A DNA stretch of 53,611 nt from an uncultured Desulfobacterales bacterium (GTDB taxonomy: Bacteria > Desulfobacterota > Desulfobacteria > Desulfobacterales > SURF-7). Position 1 is the stretch's first letter. Each line of letters starts with the position of its first letter. Shown in pieces: positions 13,856 through 42,009 of the stretch. Made by a program: the position numbers and the translations under genes. The DNA is taken from NCBI GenBank assembly GCA_964578935.1, contig CAZOEW010000001.1, forward strand, positions 1 to 53,611, in the 5' to 3' direction. The notes beneath the pieces are model-generated. The model ran no database searches, had not been told where the DNA came from, and worked only from the letters and a program-made list of their open reading frames with translations.

Positions 13856-14815
13856 TCAGGCCTCATGAGCTTTTCCGATTAAATCAACAATGCCCACCTT
13901 TTTCTTTTTAAGGTAAGTGGTTATTCCGCTATGGATCTCAACAAAAACATCGGGGTTTACAAACCAGGATGTTCCAATGCCCACCGCAGTTGCACCTGCA
14001 AGAACATATTCGATCACATCCCGCCAGTTTGAAATCCCTCCAATCCCGATGATCGGTATTTGCTTGCGGCGGCATTCCGGTATTTTTTTAAAACAGTCAT
14101 ATACCATAAAAAGGCCGATCGGTTTTATCGCCGGACCGGAAAGCCCTCCCACCACATTTCCCAGAAGCGGCTTGCCGGTATCGGTATTGATCGCCATCCC
14201 CCGTATGGTGTTAATCATGGAAAGCGCATCGGTACCTCCGGAAATAGCCGCTTTTGCGGGCACTGTAATATCGGTTATGTTCGGTGTCAGTTTGGTGATG
14301 ATAAGAAGACGTTGATCAACCCGTTTTTTTACGGTTTTAACGATGCGCTCCACCAGTTTGGGATCGGTTCCAAAAGCAGTGCCTCCTTTTTTGATATTCG
14401 GACAGGAGACATTGATCTCAATACCGGAAATAAGTTGACTCAGATCGGTATCACTCAGGCAGGAAGCAAGCTCACCGAATTCCTCAACAGAGTCTGCAGA
14501 AATGTTCACAAAAATCGGCAGATCAAAGTTGAGAAGACCGGGAAGTTCTTTTTTTGTAAAAAATGCGGCACCTTCATTTTGAAGGCCGATGGAATTGAGT
14601 ATGCCGGTCTGTGTTTCAACAATTCTAAATTCTTTGTTTCCTTCTTTGGGCTTCAGGGTAACGCCTTTGGTTACAAAGGCACCCAGTGCTGATACGATTT
14701 TGGGACTCTTTTTCAACACTTCGATTTCATTGCCATGCCCTGATGTTCCGGAAGCTGTCATTAACGGGCTTCTCAGTTGTTTGTCTTTAAGTTTCACATG
14801 GAGGATGTTATTCAT
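13856..14815 (-). CDS. pyrD: dihydroorotate dehydrogenase, class 1B catalytic subunit
   Basis: 319-aa ORF with SPLMTASGTSG, LNSIGLQNEG, EINVSCPNIKKGG, GGLSGPAIKP and IIGIGGI. The start ATG overlaps the stop of the upstream ORF (ATGA). Confidence 0.9.
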   Translation of the reverse strand: MNNILHVKLKDKQLRSPLMTASGTSGHGNEIEVLKKSPKIVSALGAFVTKGVTLKPKEGNKEFRIVETQTGILNSIGLQNEGAAFFTKKELPGLLNFDLPIFVNISADSVEEFGELASCLSDTDLSQLISGIEINVSCPNIKKGGTAFGTDPKLVERIVKTVKKRVDQRLLIITKLTPNITDITVPAKAAISGGTDALSMINTIRGMAINTDTGKPLLGNVVGGLSGPAIKPIGLFMVYDCFKKIPECRRKQIPIIGIGGISNWRDVIEYVLAGATAVGIGTSWFVNPDVFVEIHSGITTYLKKKKVGIVDLIGKAHEA

Positions 14816-15885
14816 AGTTGTTCCCAGTCAATTTCTTTTGAGTCAAAAAGAGGTCCATCAACACATACCCGGGAGTATCGGCTGCCTTTACTGCCTTTCC
14901 TGGTTCGGCAGACACAGGACATGCAGACACCGATTCCGCATCCCATTCTTTTTTCCAAAAGGACTTTCATCGGAATATTGAACTTTGTAGCGATATTTTT
15001 TAATGCGATCAGCATCGGTTTTGGACCACAGGCAAGAATCAAAATGGATTCCGTTTGTTTTAAACGGTTCAAAAACAGGCTGTAATGATCCACAACCAGA
15101 CCGACATGATAGTTTTTATGGTTTATCTTATCGCTCAGAATTTCGTTCTCCGTTGACTCCCTGGACAAGAAGATTTCATCCGGATTCAATCCGATTTTCG
15201 ATAATTCATTGATGTAAACATATGCTTTTTCGGATTCATCTGAAAACGTTTTTCCATAAGGAGCTTCCCGTAATGATTCAATCCGGTCGATACCGATAAA
15301 CGCTTTGAGTTTAAAAGAGTAAAATTTGAGGGCCTGCCCGAAAAAAACCAGGGGCGCCATGCCGACGCCGCCGCCGATAAGGTGCACTTCATCCACATTG
15401 TCAGACCGCCATTTGGGTATATTGATGAATTTTCCAAGAGGTCCCAGTATTTTTATCTGATTTCCGGGATTCAGGTTCTTCAGTTCATTTGTACCGATTC
15501 CGTCTTCTATGATTTTATAAAAGATTTCAAATTGGTGCGGATAAACCGTGTTGGTTATCGCTGCCAATTGAGCCGGGAGATGCAGTTTGTTATGATAACC
15601 CCATTCAAAATGTTTATAGTATGCCCGCTGAATTCCAAAAGGTCTTTTTAGAAAAGATCGGGCAGAGAGGTCCATCGCATGTTTCCGGTATTCAGATATC
15701 CGTTTTTCAGGAGAGCGGTTTCGTTTTTTTCGGTGACCTTCGGGCAGGGTGTCTATCATCACAAACTGTCCCGGACCGATCGTATGCATGTCCGGAGCAG
15801 TGAACTGCAGTTTGAAGTGCATGGGTTTGCCGTCCAATCCAACCGGCGTGTTTTGGATCACTTCCGCCTTGAAATGTTTTATCCG
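14812..15885 (-). other. PyrK-like domain of the fusion ORF (residues ~680-1036)
   Basis: Ferredoxin-reductase-like FAD/NAD motifs and a C-terminal Cys4 [2Fe-2S] motif. Internal ATGs at 15927 (M666) and 15918 (M669, with GGAG 3 nt upstream) could yield a stand-alone PyrK. Confidence 0.75.
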
Positions 15886-17922
15886 GTGTTTGGTATTTTT
15901 CCCCAAATCGGTTTTCATCGGCTCCATGTTGAAGAGGTGCCCGAATTGATCTGGATCGACCTCCGCTGCTTTTTTACAAATATCTTCAAAGCAGACATAG
16001 AAGCCCCTTGGCCATTTATCTGCCTGACTGATGTGTCTATAGGATTTCATCACACTTTTGTGCGGGAAGATCAGATAACAGATAATTTGAAACTCATGCC
16101 TGTCTTTTTGGAAAATATCCTCTGCTGCCTGTTTCAGGGCTTTTTCTTTTTCCGGGGAATAAAAACAGAAAAAGATTTTTCTCCCGTTTTTGTTTTCCGC
16201 AATAAAGTCGATATGGCCAAGGCTGCTGTCATGGATTTTGAAATCAGCAGTTTCTGTATGGATATCCAGAGTCGCGTCATGAAAGGAGCCTTCTGCAACG
16301 GATTTAATTTTATAATTATCTTTTAACAGGATGGCGCGAAGGAGGGACAGGCATATTCGATTGTATGCCCTGCGATTTATCCTTTTATCGGATATTGTTT
16401 CCCGGATTTCCTGCACGGATCGTTCGGCAAGAAGATTCTGCAATGAGGGTTTGATTAAATTCCCGGCATGGCATTTCACTTTTTCCGGCTGATCCGACCT
16501 TTCGTGGAAAGCGGCCATTTGAACAAATAATTCCACTTCGCGATAATCGTTCTTTCCAGATTTTTTTAAAATTTCTTTTTCAGTTTGCGACTTCCAGGTA
16601 AGAGAATAATAGTGATCCGACACACGGACTTTCTGTTTGTTTGACTTTTCGGCGATATCTGGGAAATTCGATCCTGCCGTCTCTGTTTTATACCCCATTT
16701 TTAAAAAAGTATGATGCAGTGTTTCCCCGTATTCTGTATTTTTGGTTCTATGCGCTAAAATTATTTTGCATGAATGGCCTGAGTGTTTCCTGATCCGGCT
16801 TAAAAAAGGCTTCAGTTTCTGAATATCGTCTTTTTCCGGAAGCGCTTCTGAATGCCATTTCAATAAATCCGTACAATTCATTTTAAGCCAGGCGCCCCAG
16901 AACGCTGATAAAATCGAATAATGATTGTCTCTATTATAAAGCGGATCAATCAATACATGCGTAATTTTTAGTTTTCGGGGAAAGGGTTCGGATCTTAAAT
17001 CCGTAAGATGAATATATGCCTGATCATTGGTGTTTTCAAATTCATCCATTGAATTCGCAAAGCCTGTAAAACCCAAAAGGGAATTTAATTCCTTCTTGCA
17101 GGTTAACACGGCAGCAAACTGCTTCTCAAAAGCCTTCCAGACATTGATCTCCTGTCCGGGTGATGGTGAAAAGCGATCAGAAGTTTTCCACCAGCGTGAC
17201 GCAGCGCCGGATTTCGCTGTTGTATTTTGTATCGTGATGCAGTTCGTAAGAATTCCCGTAAACACATATTGAAGTACTTCCCTGCATCTTACAGACGAGA
17301 TTTTATGAATTGCATTCAGCAGTTCAGCCAAAGACGCTAAATTTCGGCTTGTAAAAAAATCTTGAATGAAGAGGGCATCTTTTTTTTTAGAAAGGGTAAT
17401 TTTTTTTTCAGGATACCAATATTCGGGCGGAGCCTTCGATTCTGAAAGCTGTCGCTGGATCTGGAATTTTGACAGGCGCTTCAACTGGTTGAATCCACAA
17501 TATTGACAGGTGATCCTGACAGATTCAGGCCGTTCTTTTCGTCCTTCTTTCACCCATTTCAAATATTCGTAGTTTACTGGTTTTTTACATCCAGGGCATA
17601 TACCGGTATATCGGTTTTGTATATTTCCGGAAACTTTTTGTTGAATTTCTTCAAAAGCCTTTTTTAAAGAATATAAACCAACGGGCTGGGCTAAAACTTT
17701 TATCAGGAAAACAGCCACTGGATTGATGTCACCGGCCAATACTTTCGAACCGCGTTGAAGTGCCGTAACAACAGGAGCGGCTTCCCTGCAAAACAAATCA
17801 AGCAGAACATCTCCTGGCTGCATGTCTTTAAAGATTCTGTGGAGTTCATTGGACTGCTTTTGCCCCCAGTATGGATGAGAACGGGTAACACAATGTAAAA
17901 AAGGGGGCTGTTTCATATTCAA
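14812..17922 (-). CDS. pyrK: 1036-aa fusion ORF: methylase-like Zn-ribbon module + uncharacterised middle + PyrK-like FAD/[2Fe-2S] electron-transfer domain
   Basis: Uninterrupted ORF. Residues ~680-1036 are PyrK-like (GPGQFVMID, LKRPFGI, LIGGGVGMAPL, CGPKPM, CGIGVCMSCVC..VCVDGP). Residues 1-~420 are methylase-like (see separate features). The gene symbol applies to the C-terminal domain only. Confidence 0.8.
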   Translation of the reverse strand: MNMKQPPFLHCVTRSHPYWGQKQSNELHRIFKDMQPGDVLLDLFCREAAPVVTALQRGSKVLAGDINPVAVFLIKVLAQPVGLYSLKKAFEEIQQKVSGNIQNRYTGICPGCKKPVNYEYLKWVKEGRKERPESVRITCQYCGFNQLKRLSKFQIQRQLSESKAPPEYWYPEKKITLSKKKDALFIQDFFTSRNLASLAELLNAIHKISSVRCREVLQYVFTGILTNCITIQNTTAKSGAASRWWKTSDRFSPSPGQEINVWKAFEKQFAAVLTCKKELNSLLGFTGFANSMDEFENTNDQAYIHLTDLRSEPFPRKLKITHVLIDPLYNRDNHYSILSAFWGAWLKMNCTDLLKWHSEALPEKDDIQKLKPFLSRIRKHSGHSCKIILAHRTKNTEYGETLHHTFLKMGYKTETAGSNFPDIAEKSNKQKVRVSDHYYSLTWKSQTEKEILKKSGKNDYREVELFVQMAAFHERSDQPEKVKCHAGNLIKPSLQNLLAERSVQEIRETISDKRINRRAYNRICLSLLRAILLKDNYKIKSVAEGSFHDATLDIHTETADFKIHDSSLGHIDFIAENKNGRKIFFCFYSPEKEKALKQAAEDIFQKDRHEFQIICYLIFPHKSVMKSYRHISQADKWPRGFYVCFEDICKKAAEVDPDQFGHLFNMEPMKTDLGKNTKHRIKHFKAEVIQNTPVGLDGKPMHFKLQFTAPDMHTIGPGQFVMIDTLPEGHRKKRNRSPEKRISEYRKHAMDLSARSFLKRPFGIQRAYYKHFEWGYHNKLHLPAQLAAITNTVYPHQFEIFYKIIEDGIGTNELKNLNPGNQIKILGPLGKFINIPKWRSDNVDEVHLIGGGVGMAPLVFFGQALKFYSFKLKAFIGIDRIESLREAPYGKTFSDESEKAYVYINELSKIGLNPDEIFLSRESTENEILSDKINHKNYHVGLVVDHYSLFLNRLKQTESILILACGPKPMLIALKNIATKFNIPMKVLLEKRMGCGIGVCMSCVCRTRKGSKGSRYSRVCVDGPLFDSKEIDWEQL
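16663..17922 (-). other. N6/N4 DNA-methylase-like module with internal Zn ribbon (residues 1-~420)
   Basis: Motifs: HPYWGQK..GDVLLDLFCREAAPVVTALQRGSKVLAGDINPVA (motif I-like), CPGC..CQYC ribbon, FFTSRNLASLAELL, and LIDPLYNRDNHYSILSAFWGAWL (DPPY-like). Confidence 0.55.
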
Positions 17923-33142: not shown

Positions 33143-33766
33143 TTATTCCTGCAGCAATGATTCAATTTCGCTCAGGCTTTTAATATGGATATCTGCTGAA
33201 AGGGATGGATTGTTATAGGCAACAAAGGGAATCCCCGCTGCCAGGGAGGCCTGTTCGTCGACTTCGGAGTCTCCGATGTAAATCATATTATCGGGAAAGA
33301 CGTTGAAGTGATTCATAATTTTTAGCAGTGGGTCCGGGAAGGGTTTTGGGTGATCCACATCACGGGCGGAAATCACGAGGTCAAAATATCCTGCAAGATC
33401 GTGCTCAGCCAGAACACGATCCATGGTGTCGGAACGGTTTGTCGCAATCGCTGTTTTATATTCAGGCCGGAGCTTTTTCAGTAGCGGTTTCAGGCCGGGT
33501 TCAATCTCCATATAGGGAATCAGGGAAAAATAGTTTAATGTTTTGCGAACCTCATCAGCTTGCTTTCGGATTTCCCTGTTTTTAAAAAGATAGTCCAGGG
33601 AAGCATCCACCGTGTGCATATGGGTGTAGGCAAACTGATCTGCCGTCATGGGAGGCATGTTGAAATGCTCCAGAATCCGATTGTAATACGTCATGTTTGA
33701 TTTTGTCGTATCAAACATGACGCCGTCGCAGTCAAAAGCAACCACTTTAATCTTTGTCAGTTTCAT
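33143..33766 (-). CDS. HAD-superfamily hydrolase (phosphoglycolate phosphatase-like)
   Basis: 207-aa ORF with VAFDCDGVMFDT (DxD motif I), ATNR (motif II) and YIGDSEVD (motif IV). Confidence 0.8.
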   Translation of the reverse strand: MKLTKIKVVAFDCDGVMFDTTKSNMTYYNRILEHFNMPPMTADQFAYTHMHTVDASLDYLFKNREIRKQADEVRKTLNYFSLIPYMEIEPGLKPLLKKLRPEYKTAIATNRSDTMDRVLAEHDLAGYFDLVISARDVDHPKPFPDPLLKIMNHFNVFPDNMIYIGDSEVDEQASLAAGIPFVAYNNPSLSADIHIKSLSEIESLLQE

Positions 33767-33823: not shown

Positions 33824-34357
33824 CTATTCAGGCGTTTTCGGATCCAGTTCACCCAGGTATATGAATTCAATCCGACGGTTTAGAGCCTGTCCGGACTCGG
33901 TGTCATTTGAGGAGACAGGCATTGTTGCCCCGACGCCCTCGGCAGTCAGCCGGTTTTTATCAATTTGATATTTTTCGACAAGTATATCCATCACCTCTTT
34001 GGCCCGCAGCTTGGACAGGTTGAGGTTGTATTTTGCGGATCCTTTGCTGTCGGAATGCCCTTGAATCAGAATTTTTGCATTTCGGAGTTTTTCAGCTTTC
34101 AATGCGGTTGCAATCTGCTCCAACTGCGCCGTGAAACATTTATTGATTCTGGAAGAACCGGATTCGAAATGAATACCGACGATTCCAAGCTGGCCCGCCT
34201 TGATCTGTAATTCAGGCAGCTCTGTATTATTATCCGGCTTTTGAATCCTGTTTTCAGGTTTATTTTCATCTACAGCGCTTTCAGAAAGACAGGGTGATGA
34301 AGTCAGGAAAGTAAATCCTATACTCAGACAGGCGGCAAAAAATGAAATTCGTTTCAT
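33824..34357 (-). CDS. OmpA-family (peptidoglycan-associated) protein
   Basis: ORF 33824-34438. The likely start is MKRISFFAACLS (signal peptide). C-terminal OmpA_C motifs: IQGHSDSKGSAKYNLNLSKLRA..NRRIEF. Confidence 0.8.
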   Translation of the reverse strand: MKRISFFAACLSIGFTFLTSSPCLSESAVDENKPENRIQKPDNNTELPELQIKAGQLGIVGIHFESGSSRINKCFTAQLEQIATALKAEKLRNAKILIQGHSDSKGSAKYNLNLSKLRAKEVMDILVEKYQIDKNRLTAEGVGATMPVSSNDTESGQALNRRIEFIYLGELDPKTPE

Positions 34358-34409
34358 TGACATTTCCCAACCCGGCTTACCGGAAAAGTGATGATTGAAT
34401 AAAACGCGT

Positions 34410-35123
34410 CTATTGTTTTTTAGAAGAAATATCGCCATAGACGCTTATTTGAATCTCAGGTCGTATCTTGCTGTCTGTTTTTAACGTGATAATGTCAAAA
34501 TAACGACCCCCATCTGTTCTGATATTCTCTACCGTGAGAAGATAGCCCTTTCCTTCCGGATGCTCCACTTCTTTCAGTTCCTGCTGGATATTATCGCCAT
34601 TTTTGGCACTTACACTTAGAATTTTAAACGGATATTTTTTTTCAGGGATGATGTTTGCCGAGCTTTTTATGGATGCCCCGGATTCACCTGAAAGCCTGAG
34701 TCTTGAGGGAGAAATGGTTGCAAATTTTTCAACATATCCGGTTATAATCAGATTGAAACTTTTATTTTGCGGGTCATTGGTCTCAACCCGGATACTTTTA
34801 TTCACTTTCCGTCCGCCATATCCATCCGTATTTACTTTAATTTTTATTGTTCCCTCGCCACCGGGAGGGATTTGCTCTGTATAAGAGACGGCTGCGCAGC
34901 CTCAGCCGGGTTTGACTTTCATAATATCAAGCTGGGCTTTTCCTGTATTCTGTATGACAAAGTCATGTATAATTTCTTTCCCTTCGGTAATCGTTTCAAA
35001 TTTGTAGATTCCTTCAACCACATTCACCACCGGAAATGCCGTTGCTTCAATTTTGTTTTCCGCATAGCCGATTTGATAAAAAAGAAAAATAATAATAGCA
35101 GGTAAGATCGTTTTCAGTTTCAT
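34410..35123 (-). CDS. secreted DUF1573-like protein interrupted by one in-frame UGA (candidate selenoprotein, alternatively a pseudogene)
   Basis: ORFs 34902-35183 and 34410-34805 are in the same frame, and the 96 nt between them have no other stop (my translation). Reading through gives ..HDFVIQNTGKAQLDIMKVKPG-UGA-GCAAVSYTEQIPPGGEGTIKIKV..IRVETNDP. The signal peptide starts at MKLKTILPAIIIF (35123). Confidence 0.6.
34851..34870 (-). other. hairpin downstream of the UGA (weak SECIS candidate)
   Basis: Minus strand UCCCUC-CCGGUGGC-GAGGGA with GGU in the loop. The loop starts ~37 nt after the UGA, at the far edge of the reported bacterial SECIS spacing. A GGCUGCGCAGCC palindrome also directly follows the UGA. 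Confidence 0.25.
34902..34904 (-). other. in-frame UGA, candidate Sec codon
   Basis: The TGA falls where DUF1573-family proteins carry the first Cys of the conserved S-C-G-C-T motif. Here the sequence reads G-[UGA]-G-C-A. Confidence 0.5.
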
Positions 35124-35340
35124 AAACAGTTCCTCAAAAAATACGGATAATGAAAAAAATATGGTGTGCCAAGTTTTATGCATTTTAAATGGTTATTTTT
35201 GAAAGTCAAGAACGAGATGTGTAAAAAAGGCAAATCGTGTCCCTCCGGGAATCAGCTATTTTGTCCAAGTCCAAGGAAGGCAAAAATTTTAACCATATGA
35301 ATATATATAATATTTTGCGGATTAACCTGTGAGGCTGCGG

Positions 35341-35446: not shown

Positions 35447-37891
35447 TTAAAGCATGAAGATCGGATCCACGTCCACAACCACTTTTACATTTCGATTTTG
35501 AGTGATATCAAGATCTTCAAACATTAGGCGGCTCACAAAGGTATGAAGTGTGCCGGTATTGGTTCCTTTGAGTAAAATATGCCATCTGAAATATCCGGCG
35601 ATCTTTGAAAAAGGAGCCTCCACCGGGCCAAGGATCTCAATGTCCTTCTGGAATCGACGCTCTTGTTGGCACATGGCTTTACAGCGCTCACCGGCAAGGA
35701 TGGCATGGGTTTTTGTTGTTTTTTTATCCCTTCCCGATATTTTGAGCTGAACGATTCTTGAAAATGGAGGGTAGTTCAATGCTTTTCGGAAAACAATTTC
35801 CTGGCTGTAAAACCTTTCATAGTCCTGAGCCTGAGCCGCGGTTATACTGAAATGATTTGGATTATATGTCTGCAGGATTACCCTGCCTTTGAGGTTCCCC
35901 CTGCCTGCTCTTCCGGCAACCTGGGCCAGAATCTGAAATGTAAGCTCACTTGCCCTGAAATCCGGGAAATTAAGGGAAAGATCTGCACAAATAATTCCCA
36001 CTAGCGTAATGTTGGGAAAGTCGTGGCCTTTTGCGACCATTTGCGTCCCAATCAGGATATCTATCTTATTCTTCCTTAACTCTTTCAAAATAGTAACCAT
36101 GGATCCCTTTTTGACCGTTGTGTCACGATCCATTCTCGTGATTCTCGCATCTGGAAAAAGATTCTCCATGGCGGCAGCCACCTTTTCTGTGCCGATTCCC
36201 AGCAGCTTGATAGCGGGGGAACCACATTTCCCACATGCGGAAACCGATGCACGGGTGTACCCGCAAAAATGACATTTATACGCATTGATTCCCTTGTGCA
36301 GTGTAAGTGAAATATCGCAGTTCTTGCACAGCATGGGTTCACCACAGGATGCACACACCGGGAAATTCGCGAAGCCTCGCCGGTTCAGAAAGAGAAGAAC
36401 CTGTTCTCCCCGCTCAAGATTTTTTTTAACCTCTTGGATCAGCTCCGGTGTGATAAATCTTCTCAGGCCTCTTTCATCCCGGTATCGGCAAAGGTCAACA
36501 ACCGTAACCTCCGGCAGCGGGCGATCATTGATTCTTTTTGTTAAATACAACCGGTCAAATTTTTTTAGATCTGCATTAAAGGAGGACTGGACTGAGGGTG
36601 TGGCGGAGCCAAGCAGGACAATCGCGTTCTGCTGTTTTGCCCTTACAATGGCAATATCCCTTGCATGATACCGCAGACTGCTTTCCTGTTTGTAGGAGCT
36701 GTCATGCTCTTCATCCACGATAATCACACCCAGTTCGGTAACCGGTGCAAAAACGGCTGATCGTGCGCCAATGACGATTTTTACTTTTTTCTCCAGGATT
36801 TTTAGCCACTGGTCATATCTTTCACCTGCGGACAGCCCGCTGTGCAGGACGGCAATACATTCTCCAAAGCGGGCTCTGAAGCGCCTTTCGGTTTGGGAAA
36901 TCAATGCGATCTCCGGGACCAGGACAAGGGCGGAGTATCCTTTTTTCACGGCAGATTCAGCGATGCGCATATAAACTTCCGTTTTCCCGCTTCCGGTTAC
37001 ACCGGAAAGAAGATAGGTGGTGAATCCTGTTCCCATCGAGCGCAGAATGGTTGAGACTGCTTTTTCCTGTTCCCGGGTGAGTTGGGGCGGAGTGTCCGGA
37101 GGAACCGGCTCGCCCAGGGGATCGCGATAAACGCTGCGCAGATCCTCTGACAGAAATCTGTTTTTAACCAGATATTCCGTATATCCTTCGGCGCCTTCCG
37201 TATTTGCCTTCAATTCTTTAAGCGAGATGCCGTCTGGATGCTTTGTTACAAGGTCTATAATCTGTTTTCTTTTTTCATAAAACCGGTCTTTCGGGATGTC
37301 TGCATTAATGACGGATAAAAATTTTTCTTCCCGCGGTCCGATGCTTTTCCCTTTGAGCAGGAGTTTTTTTTCGATAACCCCTTGTTCAACCATTCTTTGG
37401 ATCAGGGAGGAAATGGTTTCCTTCTGAAATTTTCGCTGTAGCGTTTTTTGCAGCACAGCGCCTGATTCAAGCAGTTTCAGGACTTTTTTTTCAGCCGGGG
37501 GAAGGGTGTTTCCGCAAAGTTGTTTTTTGCCGGAAGGAGTAATGGAAAGCTCGGCATAATCATATAGATTTATACCACCGGGAAGGGCCTTTTTGATGAC
37601 CTCGCCAACAGGATATTTATAGTATTCTGCAATCCACCTGAAAAACGGAATCATGGATTTCGGAAAAAGGGCTTTTTCATCCAGAATATCTAATATCAAT
37701 TTGGTTTTGCCCTCTTCCATCTTTTCAGCTGCCCCGAGTATGTAACCGGTAACCTTTCGATGCCCAAAGGGGATCAGGACTCTTCTGCCTTCTTCGGCAA
37801 AGGGCAATAGATTTGCCGGAATCCCGTATGTATAGGTATTGTATACGGGCAGGGCAACGGCAATATCTTTGTATGCTTCGGCTTCAGGCAT
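35447..37891 (-). CDS. priA: primosomal replication protein N' (PriA helicase)
   Basis: ORF 35447-38089. The likely start is M67 (MPEAEAYKDIAVALPV). Motifs: GVTGSGKTEVY, DEEHD, Cys-rich Zn insert (CASCGEPMLCKNC..CHFCGY..CGKCGS), GTQMVAKGHDFP. Confidence 0.9.
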   Translation of the reverse strand: MPEAEAYKDIAVALPVYNTYTYGIPANLLPFAEEGRRVLIPFGHRKVTGYILGAAEKMEEGKTKLILDILDEKALFPKSMIPFFRWIAEYYKYPVGEVIKKALPGGINLYDYAELSITPSGKKQLCGNTLPPAEKKVLKLLESGAVLQKTLQRKFQKETISSLIQRMVEQGVIEKKLLLKGKSIGPREEKFLSVINADIPKDRFYEKRKQIIDLVTKHPDGISLKELKANTEGAEGYTEYLVKNRFLSEDLRSVYRDPLGEPVPPDTPPQLTREQEKAVSTILRSMGTGFTTYLLSGVTGSGKTEVYMRIAESAVKKGYSALVLVPEIALISQTERRFRARFGECIAVLHSGLSAGERYDQWLKILEKKVKIVIGARSAVFAPVTELGVIIVDEEHDSSYKQESSLRYHARDIAIVRAKQQNAIVLLGSATPSVQSSFNADLKKFDRLYLTKRINDRPLPEVTVVDLCRYRDERGLRRFITPELIQEVKKNLERGEQVLLFLNRRGFANFPVCASCGEPMLCKNCDISLTLHKGINAYKCHFCGYTRASVSACGKCGSPAIKLLGIGTEKVAAAMENLFPDARITRMDRDTTVKKGSMVTILKELRKNKIDILIGTQMVAKGHDFPNITLVGIICADLSLNFPDFRASELTFQILAQVAGRAGRGNLKGRVILQTYNPNHFSITAAQAQDYERFYSQEIVFRKALNYPPFSRIVQLKISGRDKKTTKTHAILAGERCKAMCQQERRFQKDIEILGPVEAPFSKIAGYFRWHILLKGTNTGTLHTFVSRLMFEDLDITQNRNVKVVVDVDPIFML

Positions 37892-38109
37892 ACTGTTTCC
37901 TTTCCGGGGATAGGCGTTGAAATTTATCCTTACCCTATAGATCACGAACTCCGGGCGATCAAGGGGCATTTTTTTTCTGGTTGCAAAGCCTGCGTTTTTG
38001 TTTCTTAAATACCGGTTGTGTTTTGCATACGGTGCTGTTATGAATGAACAATTTTGATTTTCTGTTTTCTTGCCCGCCAGGTCAACCATACGATGAAAGA
38101 TGCCTTTTG

Positions 38110-40233: not shown

Positions 40234-40827
40234 TTATTGATGAACGCAGGTAGCGCTTTGCAGGCAGGGAAGCATCATTTCAATGAAAAAATGCAGAATT
40301 TTTGCCGTAAGCCCCCATACGGTTATGCCCTCGTACGGATAGATCAGTGTATAACCATCCGGCATTCTTCCGGAGAAGTTTTCCTGCTGGTGGATTTTAA
40401 CCAGATGGTCGATCGGTATGTTAACGATTCTGGATATTTCAGCGGGGTCGTAAACAACGTGACTCTTTTCATTCCATAACCCGATGAACACCTCTACATC
40501 TCTTTCAAAAATGGTTTGAAAATGTCCCATTGAACCGACAAGCTCAACATGCTCCGGTGGTATGTTGAGCTCTTCTTCAAGTTCCCTGTAGACGGCATTC
40601 AGACGACCGGTATCACTTTTATCCACATGACCGCCCGGAAGTGCCACCTGGTTTCTCCAGGGATACCCCTCATTGTCGGCTTTCTGAATTGTCAGAATCA
40701 GTGGGCATTGGTTCAAATTGAAAATCAGTAAAAATACGCATGCCGCCTTGAAGTCATCACCTGCCGGAGGTTCGGGAAGAATGGTATCATCAAGACGCTG
40801 TTTCAAACATGAAGCTGTAATGGTCAT
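40234..40827 (-). CDS. NUDIX hydrolase (CoA pyrophosphatase-like)
   Basis: 197-aa ORF with Nudix box LPGGHVDKSDTGRLNAVYRELEEELNI. The start overlaps the stop of the upstream gene (ATGA). Confidence 0.75.
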   Translation of the reverse strand: MTITASCLKQRLDDTILPEPPAGDDFKAACVFLLIFNLNQCPLILTIQKADNEGYPWRNQVALPGGHVDKSDTGRLNAVYRELEEELNIPPEHVELVGSMGHFQTIFERDVEVFIGLWNEKSHVVYDPAEISRIVNIPIDHLVKIHQQENFSGRMPDGYTLIYPYEGITVWGLTAKILHFFIEMMLPCLQSATCVHQ

Positions 40828-41300
40828 GGAAGGTTTCGGTTGTCGATAAAATTTTTCAGTGTCATTTTTTGATAGCTGCCGGTTTGAATGAATTCCAGAT
40901 ATAAAATCATTTCAGAAGGGGGTATGTAACCGGGCCTGTTGGCTATTTTTTCATCTGTTTCCTTAAGAAACCAGTTTGTAGGCAGCCCCCGGACTTTGTA
41001 TCGTTGAGCGAGTTCTCTTTCCTGGTCGGAATTCACTTTTATGGAAATAAAGTTTTGATTCAGATAGGAGACCACGGCAGCATCTTTAAAGGTTGTATTG
41101 TTCATGACTTTGCAGTAACCGCACCAGTCTGCGTAAAAGTGCAGAAAGATTTTTTTCTTTTCCGCTTTACCGGCGGTTATCCCCTTGTCATATGAATACC
41201 AGTTGATCTCTTGTGTTGCTGTATTTTCAGCATAAGAAATTTGAACAATAGGAATCAAAAGCAGCGATGACAGACAGATTGTAAACAAAATTTTTTTCAT
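40824..41300 (-). CDS. periplasmic thioredoxin-fold protein
   Basis: 158-aa ORF with a signal peptide and HFYADWCGYCKVM (CxxC). Confidence 0.75.
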   Translation of the reverse strand: MKKILFTICLSSLLLIPIVQISYAENTATQEINWYSYDKGITAGKAEKKKIFLHFYADWCGYCKVMNNTTFKDAAVVSYLNQNFISIKVNSDQERELAQRYKVRGLPTNWFLKETDEKIANRPGYIPPSEMILYLEFIQTGSYQKMTLKNFIDNRNLP

Positions 41301-41322
41301 AATATCGTTTAAGCACCTGTTG

Positions 41323-42009
41323 TTAAAATAGTTTATCGGTTAAAAGCAAAAGCCCAATGGTAATCAGAAGAACTCCTGCCACGGCGTTTATATATCGGAT
41401 GAGTCTTATGGCCTTTTTAATAAAGACAAGAAGAAAATTAATAAAGATCGATATCAGAATAAAAGGTACTGCAAGACCGGCCGAATATACGACAAGAAGC
41501 AATACTCCTGTACGGACGGTTTCCTGACTGCCTGCAATGATCAGAATAGACCCCAGCAATGGTCCGATACACGGGCTCCAGCCGGCTCCGAAAGCCATTC
41601 CAATAAAAAAAGTGCCCAGGAAGTGAAGGGGTTTTTTCTGAAGATGGAGTCTTTTTTCAACATTAAGATAACGGATACGGATCAGGCCTGTCAAATGAAT
41701 ACCGAAAATGATGATGACAACACCGCCGATTTTAGTAATAACATTCCGATATTCAAAAATAAAACTTCCGAGATAGGACGCGGAAGCTCCAAGAAGGATA
41801 AATACGAATGAAAATCCGCTGACATATAATAGTGTTGAACTCAGTATTTTAATACGCAAGGCGGACGCCTTGCCTTCGATCAGCTCTTCCATGGAAAGAC
41901 CCGTAATAAAAGAAAAATAGGCAGGAATCAGCGGGAGGATACATGGAGAAAAGAAGGATGCCAGGCCGGCCAGAAGTGCAAGATGATATGGTATGTTTTC
42001 GGTCATCAT
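41323..42009 (-). CDS. ccdA: cytochrome c biogenesis / thiol-disulfide electron transporter CcdA (DsbD-core family)
   Basis: 228-aa polytopic ORF with FFSPCILPLIP and WSPCIGPLLG, the two conserved Cys motifs. Confidence 0.85.
   Translation of the reverse strand: MMTENIPYHLALLAGLASFFSPCILPLIPAYFSFITGLSMEELIEGKASALRIKILSSTLLYVSGFSFVFILLGASASYLGSFIFEYRNVITKIGGVVIIIFGIHLTGLIRIRYLNVEKRLHLQKKPLHFLGTFFIGMAFGAGWSPCIGPLLGSILIIAGSQETVRTGVLLLVVYSAGLAVPFILISIFINFLLVFIKKAIRLIRYINAVAGVLLITIGLLLLTDKLF

What the first reader, a model, noticed from the sequence alone, without database searches (positions are those of the whole stretch)
34410..35123. In-frame UGA at the first Cys position of the DUF1573 C-G-C motif: candidate new selenoprotein (or fresh pseudogene)
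Two track ORFs (34902-35183 and 34410-34805) are in the same frame and are separated by a single TGA (34904-34902) plus 96 stop-free nt. Read-through gives one secreted protein whose sequence follows the DUF1573 pattern continuously: ..HDFVIQNTGKAQLDIMKVKPG-[UGA]-GCAAVSYTEQIPPGGEGTIKIKV..IRVETNDP..

The UGA sits where family members have the first Cys of S-C-G-C-T. Cys/Sec replacement at a conserved Cys, particularly in a C-x-C redox-type motif, is the hallmark of genuine selenoproteins, and the inferred lineage is rich in them.

The evidence against is as follows. TGC to TGA is a single substitution. I cannot identify a convincing SECIS: the palindrome GGCUGCGCAGCC lies directly after the UGA, and the hairpin UCCCUC-CCGGUGGC-GAGGGA has a GGU-containing loop but starts ~37 nt downstream, at the limit of the usual spacing.
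Basis: partly seen in the sequence, partly recalled or inferred. Interest (0 to 1): 0.7.

Follow-up and report, generated by a model that had tools for sequence, protein, structure and literature searches.

The report
Known DUF1573 (OS_HP2) selenoprotein gene
The in-frame TGA is real and almost certainly encodes selenocysteine in an exported two-domain Ig-like protein, but this U-G-C DUF1573 selenoprotein family (OS_HP2) has been catalogued since 2007, so the gene is a genuine but ordinary member of a known family of unknown function.

Summary
One ORF (35123..34410, minus strand, 237 codons) is interrupted by a single TGA at 34904-34902. That TGA sits at the first Cys of the DUF1573 C-G-C motif.

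It is not a pseudogene.
- All 80 related loci, each from a different Desulfobacterales species genome, carry TGA in the same column.
- The loci share the synteny priA - gene - HAD hydrolase.
- dN/dS downstream of the TGA is 0.08-0.15.
- Cys-containing homologues exist, including two in the gene-HAD-RsmE context.
- TGA is an ordinary stop for 11 of 37 other long ORFs in the window.

It is not new either. NCBIfam NF041425 'OS_HP2 family (seleno)protein' matches at 146.9 bits (cutoff 100). Zhang & Gladyshev (2007, 2008) and two reviews (2022, 2026) list 'DUF1573, pfam07610, UGC/UxC' as a bacterial selenoprotein family.

A hairpin is predicted there in all 75 Sec genes aligned. It is more stable than synonymous-codon controls, and it is degraded in 8 Cys homologues. 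Most orthologues have a second, covarying, Sec-specific hairpin between the UGA and this one; in the window that hairpin is nearly lost.

The biochemical function is unknown, and the Sec machinery could not be checked within the window.

The parts
34410..35123 (-). Complete selenoprotein gene: 237 codons plus TAG stop, with Sec at codon 74. Member of the OS_HP2 / DUF1573 family.
   Evidence: sequence and translation. (PF07610, E=7.7e-19). (NF041425, 146.9 bits vs cutoff 100). (tblastn matches to query residues 1-237 run straight through the TGA in orthologous loci).
35131..35135 (-). Shine-Dalgarno-like GAGGA, 7 nt upstream of the ATG at 35123.
   Evidence: Read directly. Orthologues L001 and L003 start at the same MKLKTI....
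35061..35123 (-). Predicted Sec-type signal peptide (MKLKTILPAIIIFLFYQIGYA | ENK), so the mature protein is probably exported.
   Evidence: Inspection: basic n-region, hydrophobic core, G-Y-A before the putative cleavage site. In the AF2 model of orthologue P0019 this stretch is an N-terminal helix followed by a low-pLDDT linker. No signal-peptide predictor was available.
34902..34904 (-). UGA = selenocysteine codon (U74), first position of the U-G-C motif.
   Evidence: TGA is in the same column in 80/80 species loci. TGC/TGT occupies that column in 8 Cys homologues.
34896..34898 (-). TGC = Cys76, the only cysteine in the protein and the partner of U74 in U-G-C.
   Evidence: one Cys in 237 residues. 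In the 30-sequence alignment, Cys76 is nearly invariant (90% or more) and Gly75 is invariant.
34851..34870 (-). Hairpin B, the probable SECIS core: UCCCUCCC-GGU-GG-C-GAGGGA. It has an 8 bp stem with one bulge and a GGU apical loop, at +35..+54 counted from the U of UGA.
   Evidence: -11.2 kcal/mol, z=-2.6, p=0.01 against synonymous-codon resampling; a hairpin is predicted here in 75/75 Sec genes (-5.2 to -13.7 kcal/mol), and the MFE apical loop begins with GG in 69 of 75 sequences (GGC 41, GGU 18); degraded in 8 Cys homologues (mean -5.2 kcal/mol, z about 0); it meets the published bSECIS constraints, with the spacing at the limit.
34875..34887 (-). Remnant of hairpin A (CUCU-UAUAC-AGAG, 4 bp). 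In most orthologues this is a 5-7 bp Sec-specific hairpin at +14..+33.
   Evidence: Window: -2.1 kcal/mol, z=0.06. Orthologues: mean -8.2 kcal/mol, z=-2.45, absent in Cys homologues. Three of its base pairs show changes on both sides; the alignment shows stems such as GUCUC/GAGAC, GUUUC/GAAAC, GCCUC/GAGGC and GCUUC/GAAGC.
34885..34904 (-). Alternative helix predicted in the window, in which UGAGGC pairs with GUCUC and encloses the GGCUGCGCAGCC palindrome.
   Evidence: RNAfold and RNAalifold. One arm (UGAGG) is invariant for coding reasons, so covariation cannot test it. The palindrome is not conserved.
34728..35015 (-). Ig-like domain 1 (DUF1573 / OS_HP2 domain, residues 37-132), carrying U74-G-C76 in a turn between two beta-strands.
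   Evidence: AF2 model of the Cys homologue P0019: mean pLDDT 91.5, with C73-G-C75 between strands 64-71 and 75-80.
34428..34727 (-). Ig-like domain 2 (residues about 133-232). It has no Pfam model and is conserved in all orthologues.
   Evidence: conserved motifs IIPEKKYPFKI, LTVEN, GRY.D, LKTDS.I.PE. (second beta-sandwich). (tandem Ig-like matches; 2qsv).
35447..38089 (-). priA (primosomal protein N'), the conserved upstream neighbour.
   Evidence: PriA domains; found on the same strand upstream in 56 loci, with 56 of the 80 loci holding at least 3 kb of upstream flank.
33824..34360 (-). OmpA-family (peptidoglycan-binding) protein gene immediately downstream. It is present only in the window's subclade.
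   Evidence: PF00691, E=1.5e-21. (8 of 80 loci). Some database homologues are OmpA-OS_HP2 fusions (P0010, P0014, P0044).
33143..33766 (-). HAD-family hydrolase gene, the conserved downstream neighbour.
   Evidence: HAD_2, E=1.1e-31; 77 of 80 loci, same strand, usually directly after the stop codon. It also follows the Cys homologues P0019 and P0021.

Best explanation
The gene encodes a genuine selenoprotein of the known OS_HP2 / DUF1573 family.

Recoding (inferred). During translation, UGA74 is recoded as selenocysteine by SelB.GTP.Sec-tRNA(Sec). SelB is recruited by an in-ORF bacterial SECIS whose core is hairpin B (34870..34851). Hairpin B has an 8 bp G+C-rich stem and a GGU apical loop, and it overlaps the codons for I-P-P-G-G-E-G. 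In most orthologues a second, Sec-specific hairpin A lies between the UGA and hairpin B. It probably acts as a folded spacer that brings B to the ribosome's mRNA entrance. In the window's lineage hairpin A has decayed to 4 bp.

Protein (inferred). The product has an N-terminal signal peptide and is probably exported to the periplasm. In this subclade it may work with a peptidoglycan-anchored OmpA-like partner. It folds into two Ig-like beta-sandwiches.

Active site (inferred). The only redox-capable residues are U74 and C76. They sit in a beta-turn and, judged from the strand register, lie next to the invariant His53. The most likely chemistry is a reversible selenylsulfide (U-G-C) thiol/selenol exchange centre, analogous to the CXC/CGC PDI-mimic motif known from my own background knowledge. 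Binding of a soft metal by Sec, Cys and His is the alternative.

What is shown: the conserved UGA, the Cys/Sec pairing, the Sec-specific RNA structure, purifying selection, family membership and the fold.

What is inferred: SelB binding to hairpin B, export, and the chemistry.
For: - TGA sits at the same column in 80/80 loci from different GTDB species, and in the window.
- True Cys homologues have CGC there. P0019 and P0021 share the gene-HAD-RsmE context.
- dN/dS after the TGA is 0.076 against L001 and 0.152 against L003.
- NF041425 'OS_HP2 family (seleno)protein' scores 146.9 bits against a cutoff of 100. PF07610 scores 68 bits.
- The literature lists OS_HP2 / DUF1573 with a UGC or UxC motif.
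- Both RNA regions are more stable than synonymous-codon controls in the 75 Sec genes (z=-2.45 for A, -2.38 for B) and not in 8 Cys genes (z about 0).
- In the fixed-register structure, 84% of cells are paired, against 37-56% for the slid controls, and hairpin A shows compensatory changes.
- A hairpin is predicted in the B region of all 75 sequences, and its MFE apical loop begins with GG in 69 of them. It satisfies the published bSECIS model of loop, stem, G position and MFE.
- TGA is an ordinary stop for 11 of 37 long ORFs in the window, so there is no genome-wide reassignment.
- The AF2 model of the Cys homologue P0019 has pLDDT 91.5, two Ig-like domains, and the motif in a turn.
Against: - No Sec machinery (selA, selB, selD or tRNA-Sec) lies in the 53.6 kb window, so Sec competence of this genome is inferred from its relatives.
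- No Rfam SECIS family matches, either at gathering scores or at E<=10.
- Hairpin B's loop is 37-39 nt from the UGA, at or just beyond the 16-37 nt range of the bSECIS model.
- Part of hairpin B's self-complementarity is forced by the Pro-Pro-Gly-Gly codons. No two-sided covariation was seen for B in a fixed register.
- There is no experimental evidence for Sec insertion in any member of this family in the papers read. The function is unknown.
Confidence: 0.9

Rival explanations
1. Fresh pseudogene or sequencing/assembly error: a recent TGC-to-TGA substitution has truncated an ordinary Cys-type DUF1573 gene.
For: TGC to TGA is a single substitution. The gene callers behind the protein database split or truncate the gene (many hits of 131-171 aa). 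The window's hairpin A is weak.
Against: The same TGA is present in 80/80 independent species assemblies at 45-93% protein identity. dN/dS downstream is 0.08-0.15. Sec-specific RNA structure is present. The family is a catalogued selenoprotein family.
Confidence: 0.01
2. The UGA terminates translation, and the downstream part is made separately from an internal start such as GTG 34805. This would give two polypeptides and no selenocysteine.
For: An ORF with a GTG start exists at 34805. Gene callers annotate such fragments in many genomes.
Against: The 32 codons between the TGA and that GTG (GCAAVSYTEQIPPGGEGTIKIKVNTDGYGGRK) are conserved in frame in all orthologues. The called starts of the fragments differ from genome to genome (V, M at different positions). 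The split would cut the DUF1573 beta-sandwich in the middle. The downstream fragment would lack a signal peptide. Cys homologues are single polypeptides.
Confidence: 0.03
3. The UGA is read through or recoded as something other than Sec, for example Trp or Gly as in genetic codes 4/25, or near-cognate Trp/Cys suppression.
For: Many database entries show W at this position.
Against: The W entries are the same sequences as loci that carry TGA, for example P0023 = L049 and P0015 = L058. They therefore look like a gene-caller artefact from translation with a code that reads TGA as Trp (inferred). TGA ends 11 of 37 long ORFs in the window. The column is Cys, not Trp or Gly, in all TGA-free homologues. 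A Sec-specific downstream hairpin with a G-rich loop is present.
Confidence: 0.03
4. It is a Sec gene, but the SelB-binding SECIS is hairpin A, or the UGA-containing helix, rather than hairpin B. Hairpin B would then be mostly a by-product of the PPGGEG codons.
For: Hairpin A starts 10-12 nt after the UGA. From my own knowledge this is close to the 11-nt spacing of the minimal E. coli fdhF SECIS. Hairpin A shows clear two-sided covariation and is absent from Cys homologues. In about a sixth of sequences its loop starts with GU. CCN-CCN-GGN-GGN is intrinsically self-complementary.
Against: In most sequences hairpin A's loop has no G in its first positions, and the bSECIS model requires one. Hairpin A is almost lost in the window, L001 and L003 (-2.1 to -2.8 kcal/mol), yet these genes keep the TGA and remain under purifying selection. 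Hairpin B is present in every sequence, is significantly stabilised at synonymous sites (z=-2.4), and is degraded in Cys homologues.
Confidence: 0.25

Closest known systems
OS_HP2 selenoprotein family (Olavius symbiont hypothetical protein 2; NCBIfam NF041425; listed as 'DUF1573 domain-containing protein, pfam07610, UGC')
   Same: Same domain (PF07610). Same U-G-C motif with Sec at the first position. Same lineage (Desulfobacterales/Deltaproteobacteria). The window protein scores above the curated NF041425 cutoff. A locus from an Olavius-associated Delta 1 genome (L019) is a syntenic orthologue at 48% identity with TGA at the same column.
   Different: Nothing essential. The window's subclade has an extra OmpA-like gene between this gene and the HAD gene, and its hairpin A has decayed. 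The 2007 paper found 0 Cys homologues in its own dataset and did not show the SECIS of this family. Here Cys homologues and the RNA structure are documented.
Cys-type DUF1573 proteins (PF07610; e.g. Desulfosarcina sp. BuS5 BuS5_01775 = P0029; structural-genomics entry 2qsv from Porphyromonas gingivalis)
   Same: Same two-domain Ig-like architecture with a signal peptide and a C-G-C motif in the same turn.
   Different: They have Cys instead of Sec and lack the stabilised downstream hairpins. Several lie in HdrA/FlpD-type gene clusters rather than between priA and the HAD gene.
Canonical bacterial SECIS (E. coli fdhF type; consensus bSECIS model of Zhang & Gladyshev as summarised in PMC13188914)
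   Same: An in-ORF stem-loop downstream of the UGA. Small apical loop with G followed by G or U. 4-16 bp stem. MFE <= -7.5 kcal/mol.
   Different: The loop lies 37-39 nt from the UGA, at or beyond the model's upper limit. In most family members a second conserved hairpin occupies the spacer. No Rfam SECIS family matches.
CXC / CGC redox motifs (PDI-mimic CGC peptides, Mia40 CPC) - from my own knowledge, not tested here
   Same: Two chalcogen residues separated by one residue (Gly), in an exported protein.
   Different: The scaffold is an Ig-like beta-sandwich rather than a thioredoxin fold. There is no biochemical evidence for oxidoreductase activity in DUF1573 proteins.

Membership tests
OS_HP2 family (seleno)protein, NCBIfam NF041425 | Score above the curated whole-protein cutoff of the family HMM | tested here: met
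   146.9 bits vs cutoff 100, E=1.7e-43, residues 37-132 on profile positions 3-98 of 98 (TGA entered as Cys).
OS_HP2 family (seleno)protein, NCBIfam NF041425 | DUF1573 (PF07610) domain | tested here: met
   68 bits vs gathering score 26.1, E=7.7e-19.
OS_HP2 family (seleno)protein, NCBIfam NF041425 | In-frame UGA at the first position of the U-G-C (UxC) motif, aligned with Cys in homologues | tested here: met
   The literature gives the motif as 'UGC' or 'UxC'.
OS_HP2 family (seleno)protein, NCBIfam NF041425 | TGA conserved in orthologues from other organisms | tested here: met
   80/80 loci, including an Olavius-associated Delta 1 genome (L019).
Bacterial selenoprotein gene (general) | [quoted passage not shown] | tested here: met
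   Hairpin B: -11.2 kcal/mol, 8 bp stem, GGU loop. Criteria taken. The spacing is 37 nt if the loop is read as the 8-nt CCGGUGGC and 39 nt if read as the 3-nt GGU, so it is met only at the limit. bSECISearch itself was not available.
Bacterial selenoprotein gene (general) | RNA structure specific to the Sec forms and absent from the Cys forms | tested here: met
   Sec genes z=-2.45 (A) and -2.38 (B); Cys genes z about 0, with n=8 only.
Bacterial selenoprotein gene (general) | Sec-decoding machinery (selA, selB, selC, selD) in the same genome | not testable with these tools
   Only the window is available. It has no tRNA and no sel genes among 33 ORFs scanned.
Bacterial selenoprotein gene (general) | Selenium demonstrated in the protein (75Se labelling or mass spectrometry) | not testable with these tools
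   This is an experimental test. None is reported for this family in the papers read.
Rfam bacterial SECIS families | Covariance-model match | tested here: not met
   No hit at gathering score in the window. No SECIS family at E<=10 in 34700-35000. The Rfam SECIS models cover only a few lineages.

The most novel reading that the evidence does not exclude
The SECIS of the OS_HP2 family may be a tandem-hairpin element. A G-less, covarying, Sec-specific hairpin A (+14..+33) would serve as a folded spacer that places the SelB-binding hairpin B (GG[C/U] loop, about 39 nt from the UGA in sequence) at the ribosomal mRNA entrance. That would be an architecture outside the 16-37 nt single-hairpin bSECIS model. 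The window's lineage would show that hairpin A is dispensable.
Probability: 0.3. Interest if true: 0.4.

Novelty: already known. Interest (0 to 1): 0.2.

Why it matters
For annotation, the two fragment ORFs (34902..35183 and 34410..34805) should be merged into one selenoprotein gene. Many public entries for this family are truncated or carry a spurious Trp at the Sec position.

For biology, it adds little. OS_HP2/DUF1573 is already catalogued as a bacterial selenoprotein family of unknown function.

This analysis adds four modest points:
- The Sec form was found in all 80 retrieved loci (the best 80 of 103 tblastn-confirmed), all of which fall in the priA-OS_HP2-HAD group of Desulfobacterales.
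- Homologues that carry Cys instead share the downstream HAD-RsmE context.
- The region downstream of the UGA carries two Sec-specific hairpins. The one with the G-rich loop is unusually far from the UGA.
- The protein has exactly one Sec and one Cys on an exported Ig-like scaffold, which makes it a clean target for testing what a U-G-C centre does in the periplasm of sulfate reducers.

Tried and rejected
- Rfam scans at gathering score (whole window) and at E<=10 (34700-35000) gave no SECIS family, only chance CRISPR-DR2 and SNORD19B hits.
- ARAGORN found no tRNA-Sec in the window.
- The search for related loci with the 15-sequence alignment A1 failed because it had no sufficiently conserved stretch. 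The 6-sequence alignment A2 worked.
The Cys homologue P0019 was modelled instead.
- A PDB sequence search found nothing significant. Foldseek gave only generic HYDIN/ASH/cadherin-type Ig-like matches and 2qsv, a protein of unknown function, so it offered no functional clue.
- A scan of the window for other TGA-split ORFs, to show Sec use in this genome, found only spurious antisense or read-through frames. The same scan of the flanks of the 80 loci for CxxU/UxxC junctions found nothing credible.
- A suspected split HdrA gene in L084 ends in TAA, not TGA.
- sel genes were sought among 33 window ORFs with Pfam and NCBIfam. None was found.
- The palindrome GGCUGCGCAGCC was considered as a SECIS and rejected. 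It is not conserved and it starts directly after the UGA.
Full report
**1. Observation**

On the minus strand, an ATG at 35123-35121 is preceded by GAGGA at 35135-35131. It opens a frame that runs to TAG at 34412-34410. The frame contains exactly one internal stop, TGA at 34904-34902.

Read through, the product is 237 residues: MKLKTILPAIIIFLFYQIGYAENK...VKPG-U-GCAAVSYTEQIPPGGEGTIKIKV...

With Cys entered at the TGA, the protein matches Pfam DUF1573 (PF07610, E=7.7e-19, residues 38-131) and the related HYDIN/VesB Ig-like model.

**2. Is the TGA an accident?**

No. A protein search returned two kinds of relatives. The first kind is full-length proteins of about 240 aa. The second kind is a very large number of 131-171 aa fragments that begin a few residues after the motif, for example VSYTRQIPPGEEG..., MASYTRQ... 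and MPPGGEG.... That is the signature of gene callers stopping at a conserved in-frame stop.

Many of the 'full-length' entries carry W at the motif (TGWGC, TDWGC). These are the same genes as loci that carry TGA, for example P0023 = L049 and P0015 = L058. They therefore look like TGA translated with a genetic code that reads it as Trp, which is an inference.

A scan of one genome per GTDB species used peptide patterns taken from the C-terminal domain, so it was blind to the Sec/Cys column. It confirmed 103 relatives by tblastn and returned the best 80 as loci, all Desulfobacterales or 'Deltaproteobacteria'. All 80 have TGA in exactly the same codon column, at 45-93% protein identity to the window.

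True Cys homologues also exist: P0017, P0019, P0020, P0021, P0025, P0026, P0029, P0031, P0034, P0050 and others, with K[PT][GS]-C-G-C-T.

The 80 loci are positional orthologues. priA lies upstream on the same strand in 56 loci (56 loci hold at least 3 kb of upstream flank). A HAD-family hydrolase gene follows directly in 77 of 80 (domains). The Cys homologues P0019 and P0021 share the gene-HAD-RsmE arrangement.

Between the window and its closest relatives L001 and L003, dN/dS for codons 75-237, downstream of the TGA, is 0.076 and 0.152. For the N-terminal 73 codons, which include the signal peptide, it is 0.46 and 0.39. The part after the TGA is therefore translated in this frame and is under strong purifying selection.

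TGA is an ordinary terminator for 11 of 37 long ORFs in the window, so there is no genome-wide reassignment.

Taken together, these results exclude the pseudogene and sequencing-error reading, and they argue strongly against the two-polypeptide and Trp read-through readings.

**3. RNA structure downstream of the UGA**

I aligned 69-nt segments (6 nt upstream, the TGA, and 60 nt downstream) from 75 distinct Sec genes. The alignment is gapless. Two hairpin regions stand out.

*Hairpin A.* It lies at +14..+33, counted from the U of UGA, and is typically CUGUCUC-UUAUAC-GAGACAG.
- It shows compensatory changes: GUCUC/GAGAC, GUUUC/GAAAC, GCCUC/GAGGC and GCUUC/GAAGC.
- These couple a Val/Ala codon with the synonymous or Arg/Lys choice five codons later.
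- Some clades keep a hairpin here but in a shifted register.
- In a fixed-register count, 84% of cells are paired against 37-56% for slid controls. Three pairs of hairpin A change on both sides.

*Hairpin B.* It lies at +35..+54: UCCCUCCC-GGN-GG-N-GAGGGA, overlapping the codons for I-P-P-G-G-E-G.
- A hairpin is predicted here in all 75 sequences, at -5.2 to -13.7 kcal/mol.
- Its MFE apical loop begins with GG in 69 of the 75 sequences (GGC 41, GGU 18).

*Control for coding constraints.* To separate RNA selection from protein constraints, I resampled synonymous codons while keeping each peptide.

| Set | Region A: mean MFE (kcal/mol), mean z | Region B: mean MFE (kcal/mol), mean z |
|---|---|---|
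| Sec genes (n=75) | -8.2, z=-2.45 | -10.4, z=-2.38 |
| Cys homologues (n=8; DNA) | -1.8, z about 0 | -5.2, z about 0 |
| Window | -2.1, z=0.06 | -11.2, z=-2.6 (p=0.01) |

Both hairpins are therefore Sec-specific RNA features. In the window, and in L001 and L003, hairpin A has decayed to a 4 bp remnant (34887..34875), while hairpin B (34870..34851) is intact.

*Comparison with the published model.* The bSECIS consensus, as quoted from PMC13188914, requires:
- an apical loop of 3-9 nt;
- a stem of 4-16 bp;
- a G in the first two loop positions, usually followed by G or U;
- 16-37 nt between the UGA and the loop;
- MFE <= -7.5 kcal/mol.

Hairpin B meets every criterion. The spacing sits at the limit: 37 nt if the loop is read as CCGGUGGC, and 39 nt if read as GGU closed by two extra C-G pairs. 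Most hairpin A loops (UUAUAC, CUUUCC and similar) have no G in the first positions.

I conclude that hairpin B is the probable SelB target (about 0.6-0.7). Hairpin A is then an auxiliary folded spacer. When folded, its base is 10 nt from the UGA and 1 nt from the base of B. The spacer role is inference only.

The palindrome directly after the UGA is not conserved. From my own knowledge of ribosome geometry, it would be inside the ribosome when UGA is in the A site. No Rfam SECIS family matches.

**4. The protein**

The N-terminus looks like a Sec-type signal peptide: MKLK, a hydrophobic core, then GYA|ENK. This is by inspection only.

AF2 could not be run on the window sequence. The Cys homologue P0019 (45% identical) gave a confident model with mean pLDDT 91.5 and two Ig-like beta-sandwiches. 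The C-G-C motif lies in the turn between strands 64-71 and 75-80.

Foldseek finds HYDIN/ASH-type and cadherin-like Ig domains, and the uncharacterised P. gingivalis structure 2qsv. A sequence search of the PDB finds nothing.

The window protein has a single Cys, C76, next to U74. His53, Gly75 and several glycines are invariant in a 30-sequence alignment. From the strand register, His53 should lie next to the U-G-C turn; this is an inference, because no coordinates were available.

In the window's subclade, an OmpA-family gene lies between this gene and the HAD gene (8 of 80 loci). Some database homologues are OmpA-OS_HP2 fusions. This is consistent with a cell-envelope location.

The most likely chemistry is a selenylsulfide/selenol-thiol exchange centre. 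CXC and CGC motifs are known PDI mimics, which I state from my own knowledge. Soft-metal binding is the alternative. Neither is tested.

**5. Comparison with what is known**

NCBIfam NF041425 'OS_HP2 family (seleno)protein' matches at 146.9 bits against a cutoff of 100.

OS_HP2 was defined by Zhang & Gladyshev in 2007 from the delta1 and delta4 symbionts of Olavius algarvensis. They had two sequences and no Cys homologue in that dataset, and they did not illustrate its SECIS (PMC1976440).

The 2008 GOS paper lists 'OS_HP2, pfam07610, UxC' (PMC2398784). [quoted passage not shown]

A locus from an Olavius-associated Delta 1 genome is among my orthologous loci (L019), with the same TGA and the same synteny.

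The window gene is therefore a member of an already catalogued family. Every sequence-level membership criterion tested was met. Two criteria remain untested: the presence of Sec machinery in this genome, and selenium in the protein.
- The window has no tRNA and no sel gene among 33 ORFs scanned.
- No other TGA-split gene was found in the window or in the locus flanks.

**6. Verdict**

The selenoprotein interpretation is supported, and the pseudogene alternative is refuted. The claim of novelty is not supported.

Interest is low (0.2). The residual points of interest are:
- the two-hairpin, long-spacing SECIS region of this family;
- the complete dominance of the Sec form among the retrieved priA-OS_HP2-HAD loci of Desulfobacterales;
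- the systematic mis-annotation of these genes in public databases, as truncated fragments or with W at the Sec position.

Noticed in passing
Protein hits P0003-P0120; P0007, P0010-P0052: Public databases hold this gene mostly as C-terminal fragments of 131-171 aa, or as full-length proteins with a spurious Trp at the Sec position (TGWGC, TDWGC). Identical peptides in loci L049, L058 and L024 carry TGA there. This looks like a systematic annotation artefact for the whole family.
   Followed up: partly
L001-L080, +14..+33 downstream of the TGA; window 34875-34887: A second Sec-specific hairpin (A) lies between the UGA and the G-loop hairpin in most orthologues. It shows clear compensatory substitutions that couple a Val/Ala codon with an Arg/Lys codon, and register shifts in some clades. 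It is nearly lost in the window, L001 and L003.
   Followed up: yes
L082 (Desulfosarcina sp. BuS5, CP087952.1), L084, L087: Several Cys-type homologues (P0029, P0020, P0050) do not lie between priA and the HAD gene. They are embedded in clusters of HdrA-like FAD/Fe-S oxidoreductase and FlpD (MvhD-like) genes. This suggests paralogues associated with heterodisulfide-reductase-type complexes.
   Followed up: no
P0001 (397 aa), P0004 (364 aa): Some relatives carry three tandem copies of the second Ig-like domain (repeats of ...IIPE.K..F.I...ENKKKE.GRY.D.I.LKTDS...). P0025, P0041, P0043 and P0073 have long low-complexity, Q/K-rich C-terminal tails.
   Followed up: no
window 33824-34360 (-); P0010, P0014, P0044: An OmpA-family peptidoglycan-binding protein gene sits directly downstream in only 8 of 80 loci, the window's subclade. 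In other metagenomic relatives an OmpA-like domain is fused N-terminally to the OS_HP2 selenoprotein.
   Followed up: partly
window 40824-42009 (-): There is a pair of periplasmic-reductant genes. One is a CcdA/DsbD-like membrane protein (41323-42009), with a weak, sub-threshold similarity to the 'TsoB' selenoprotein model. The other is a signal-peptide thioredoxin-like protein with a WCGYC motif (40824-41300). They lie about 6 kb from the selenoprotein gene. No link between them was established.
   Followed up: no
window 14812-17922 (-): This is a 1036-aa ORF. Only its C-terminal 80-230 residues or so match a PyrK-like dihydroorotate dehydrogenase electron-transfer subunit. It lies directly upstream of pyrD (13856-14815). 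The large N-terminal part got no NCBIfam hit at E<=1e-10.
   Followed up: no
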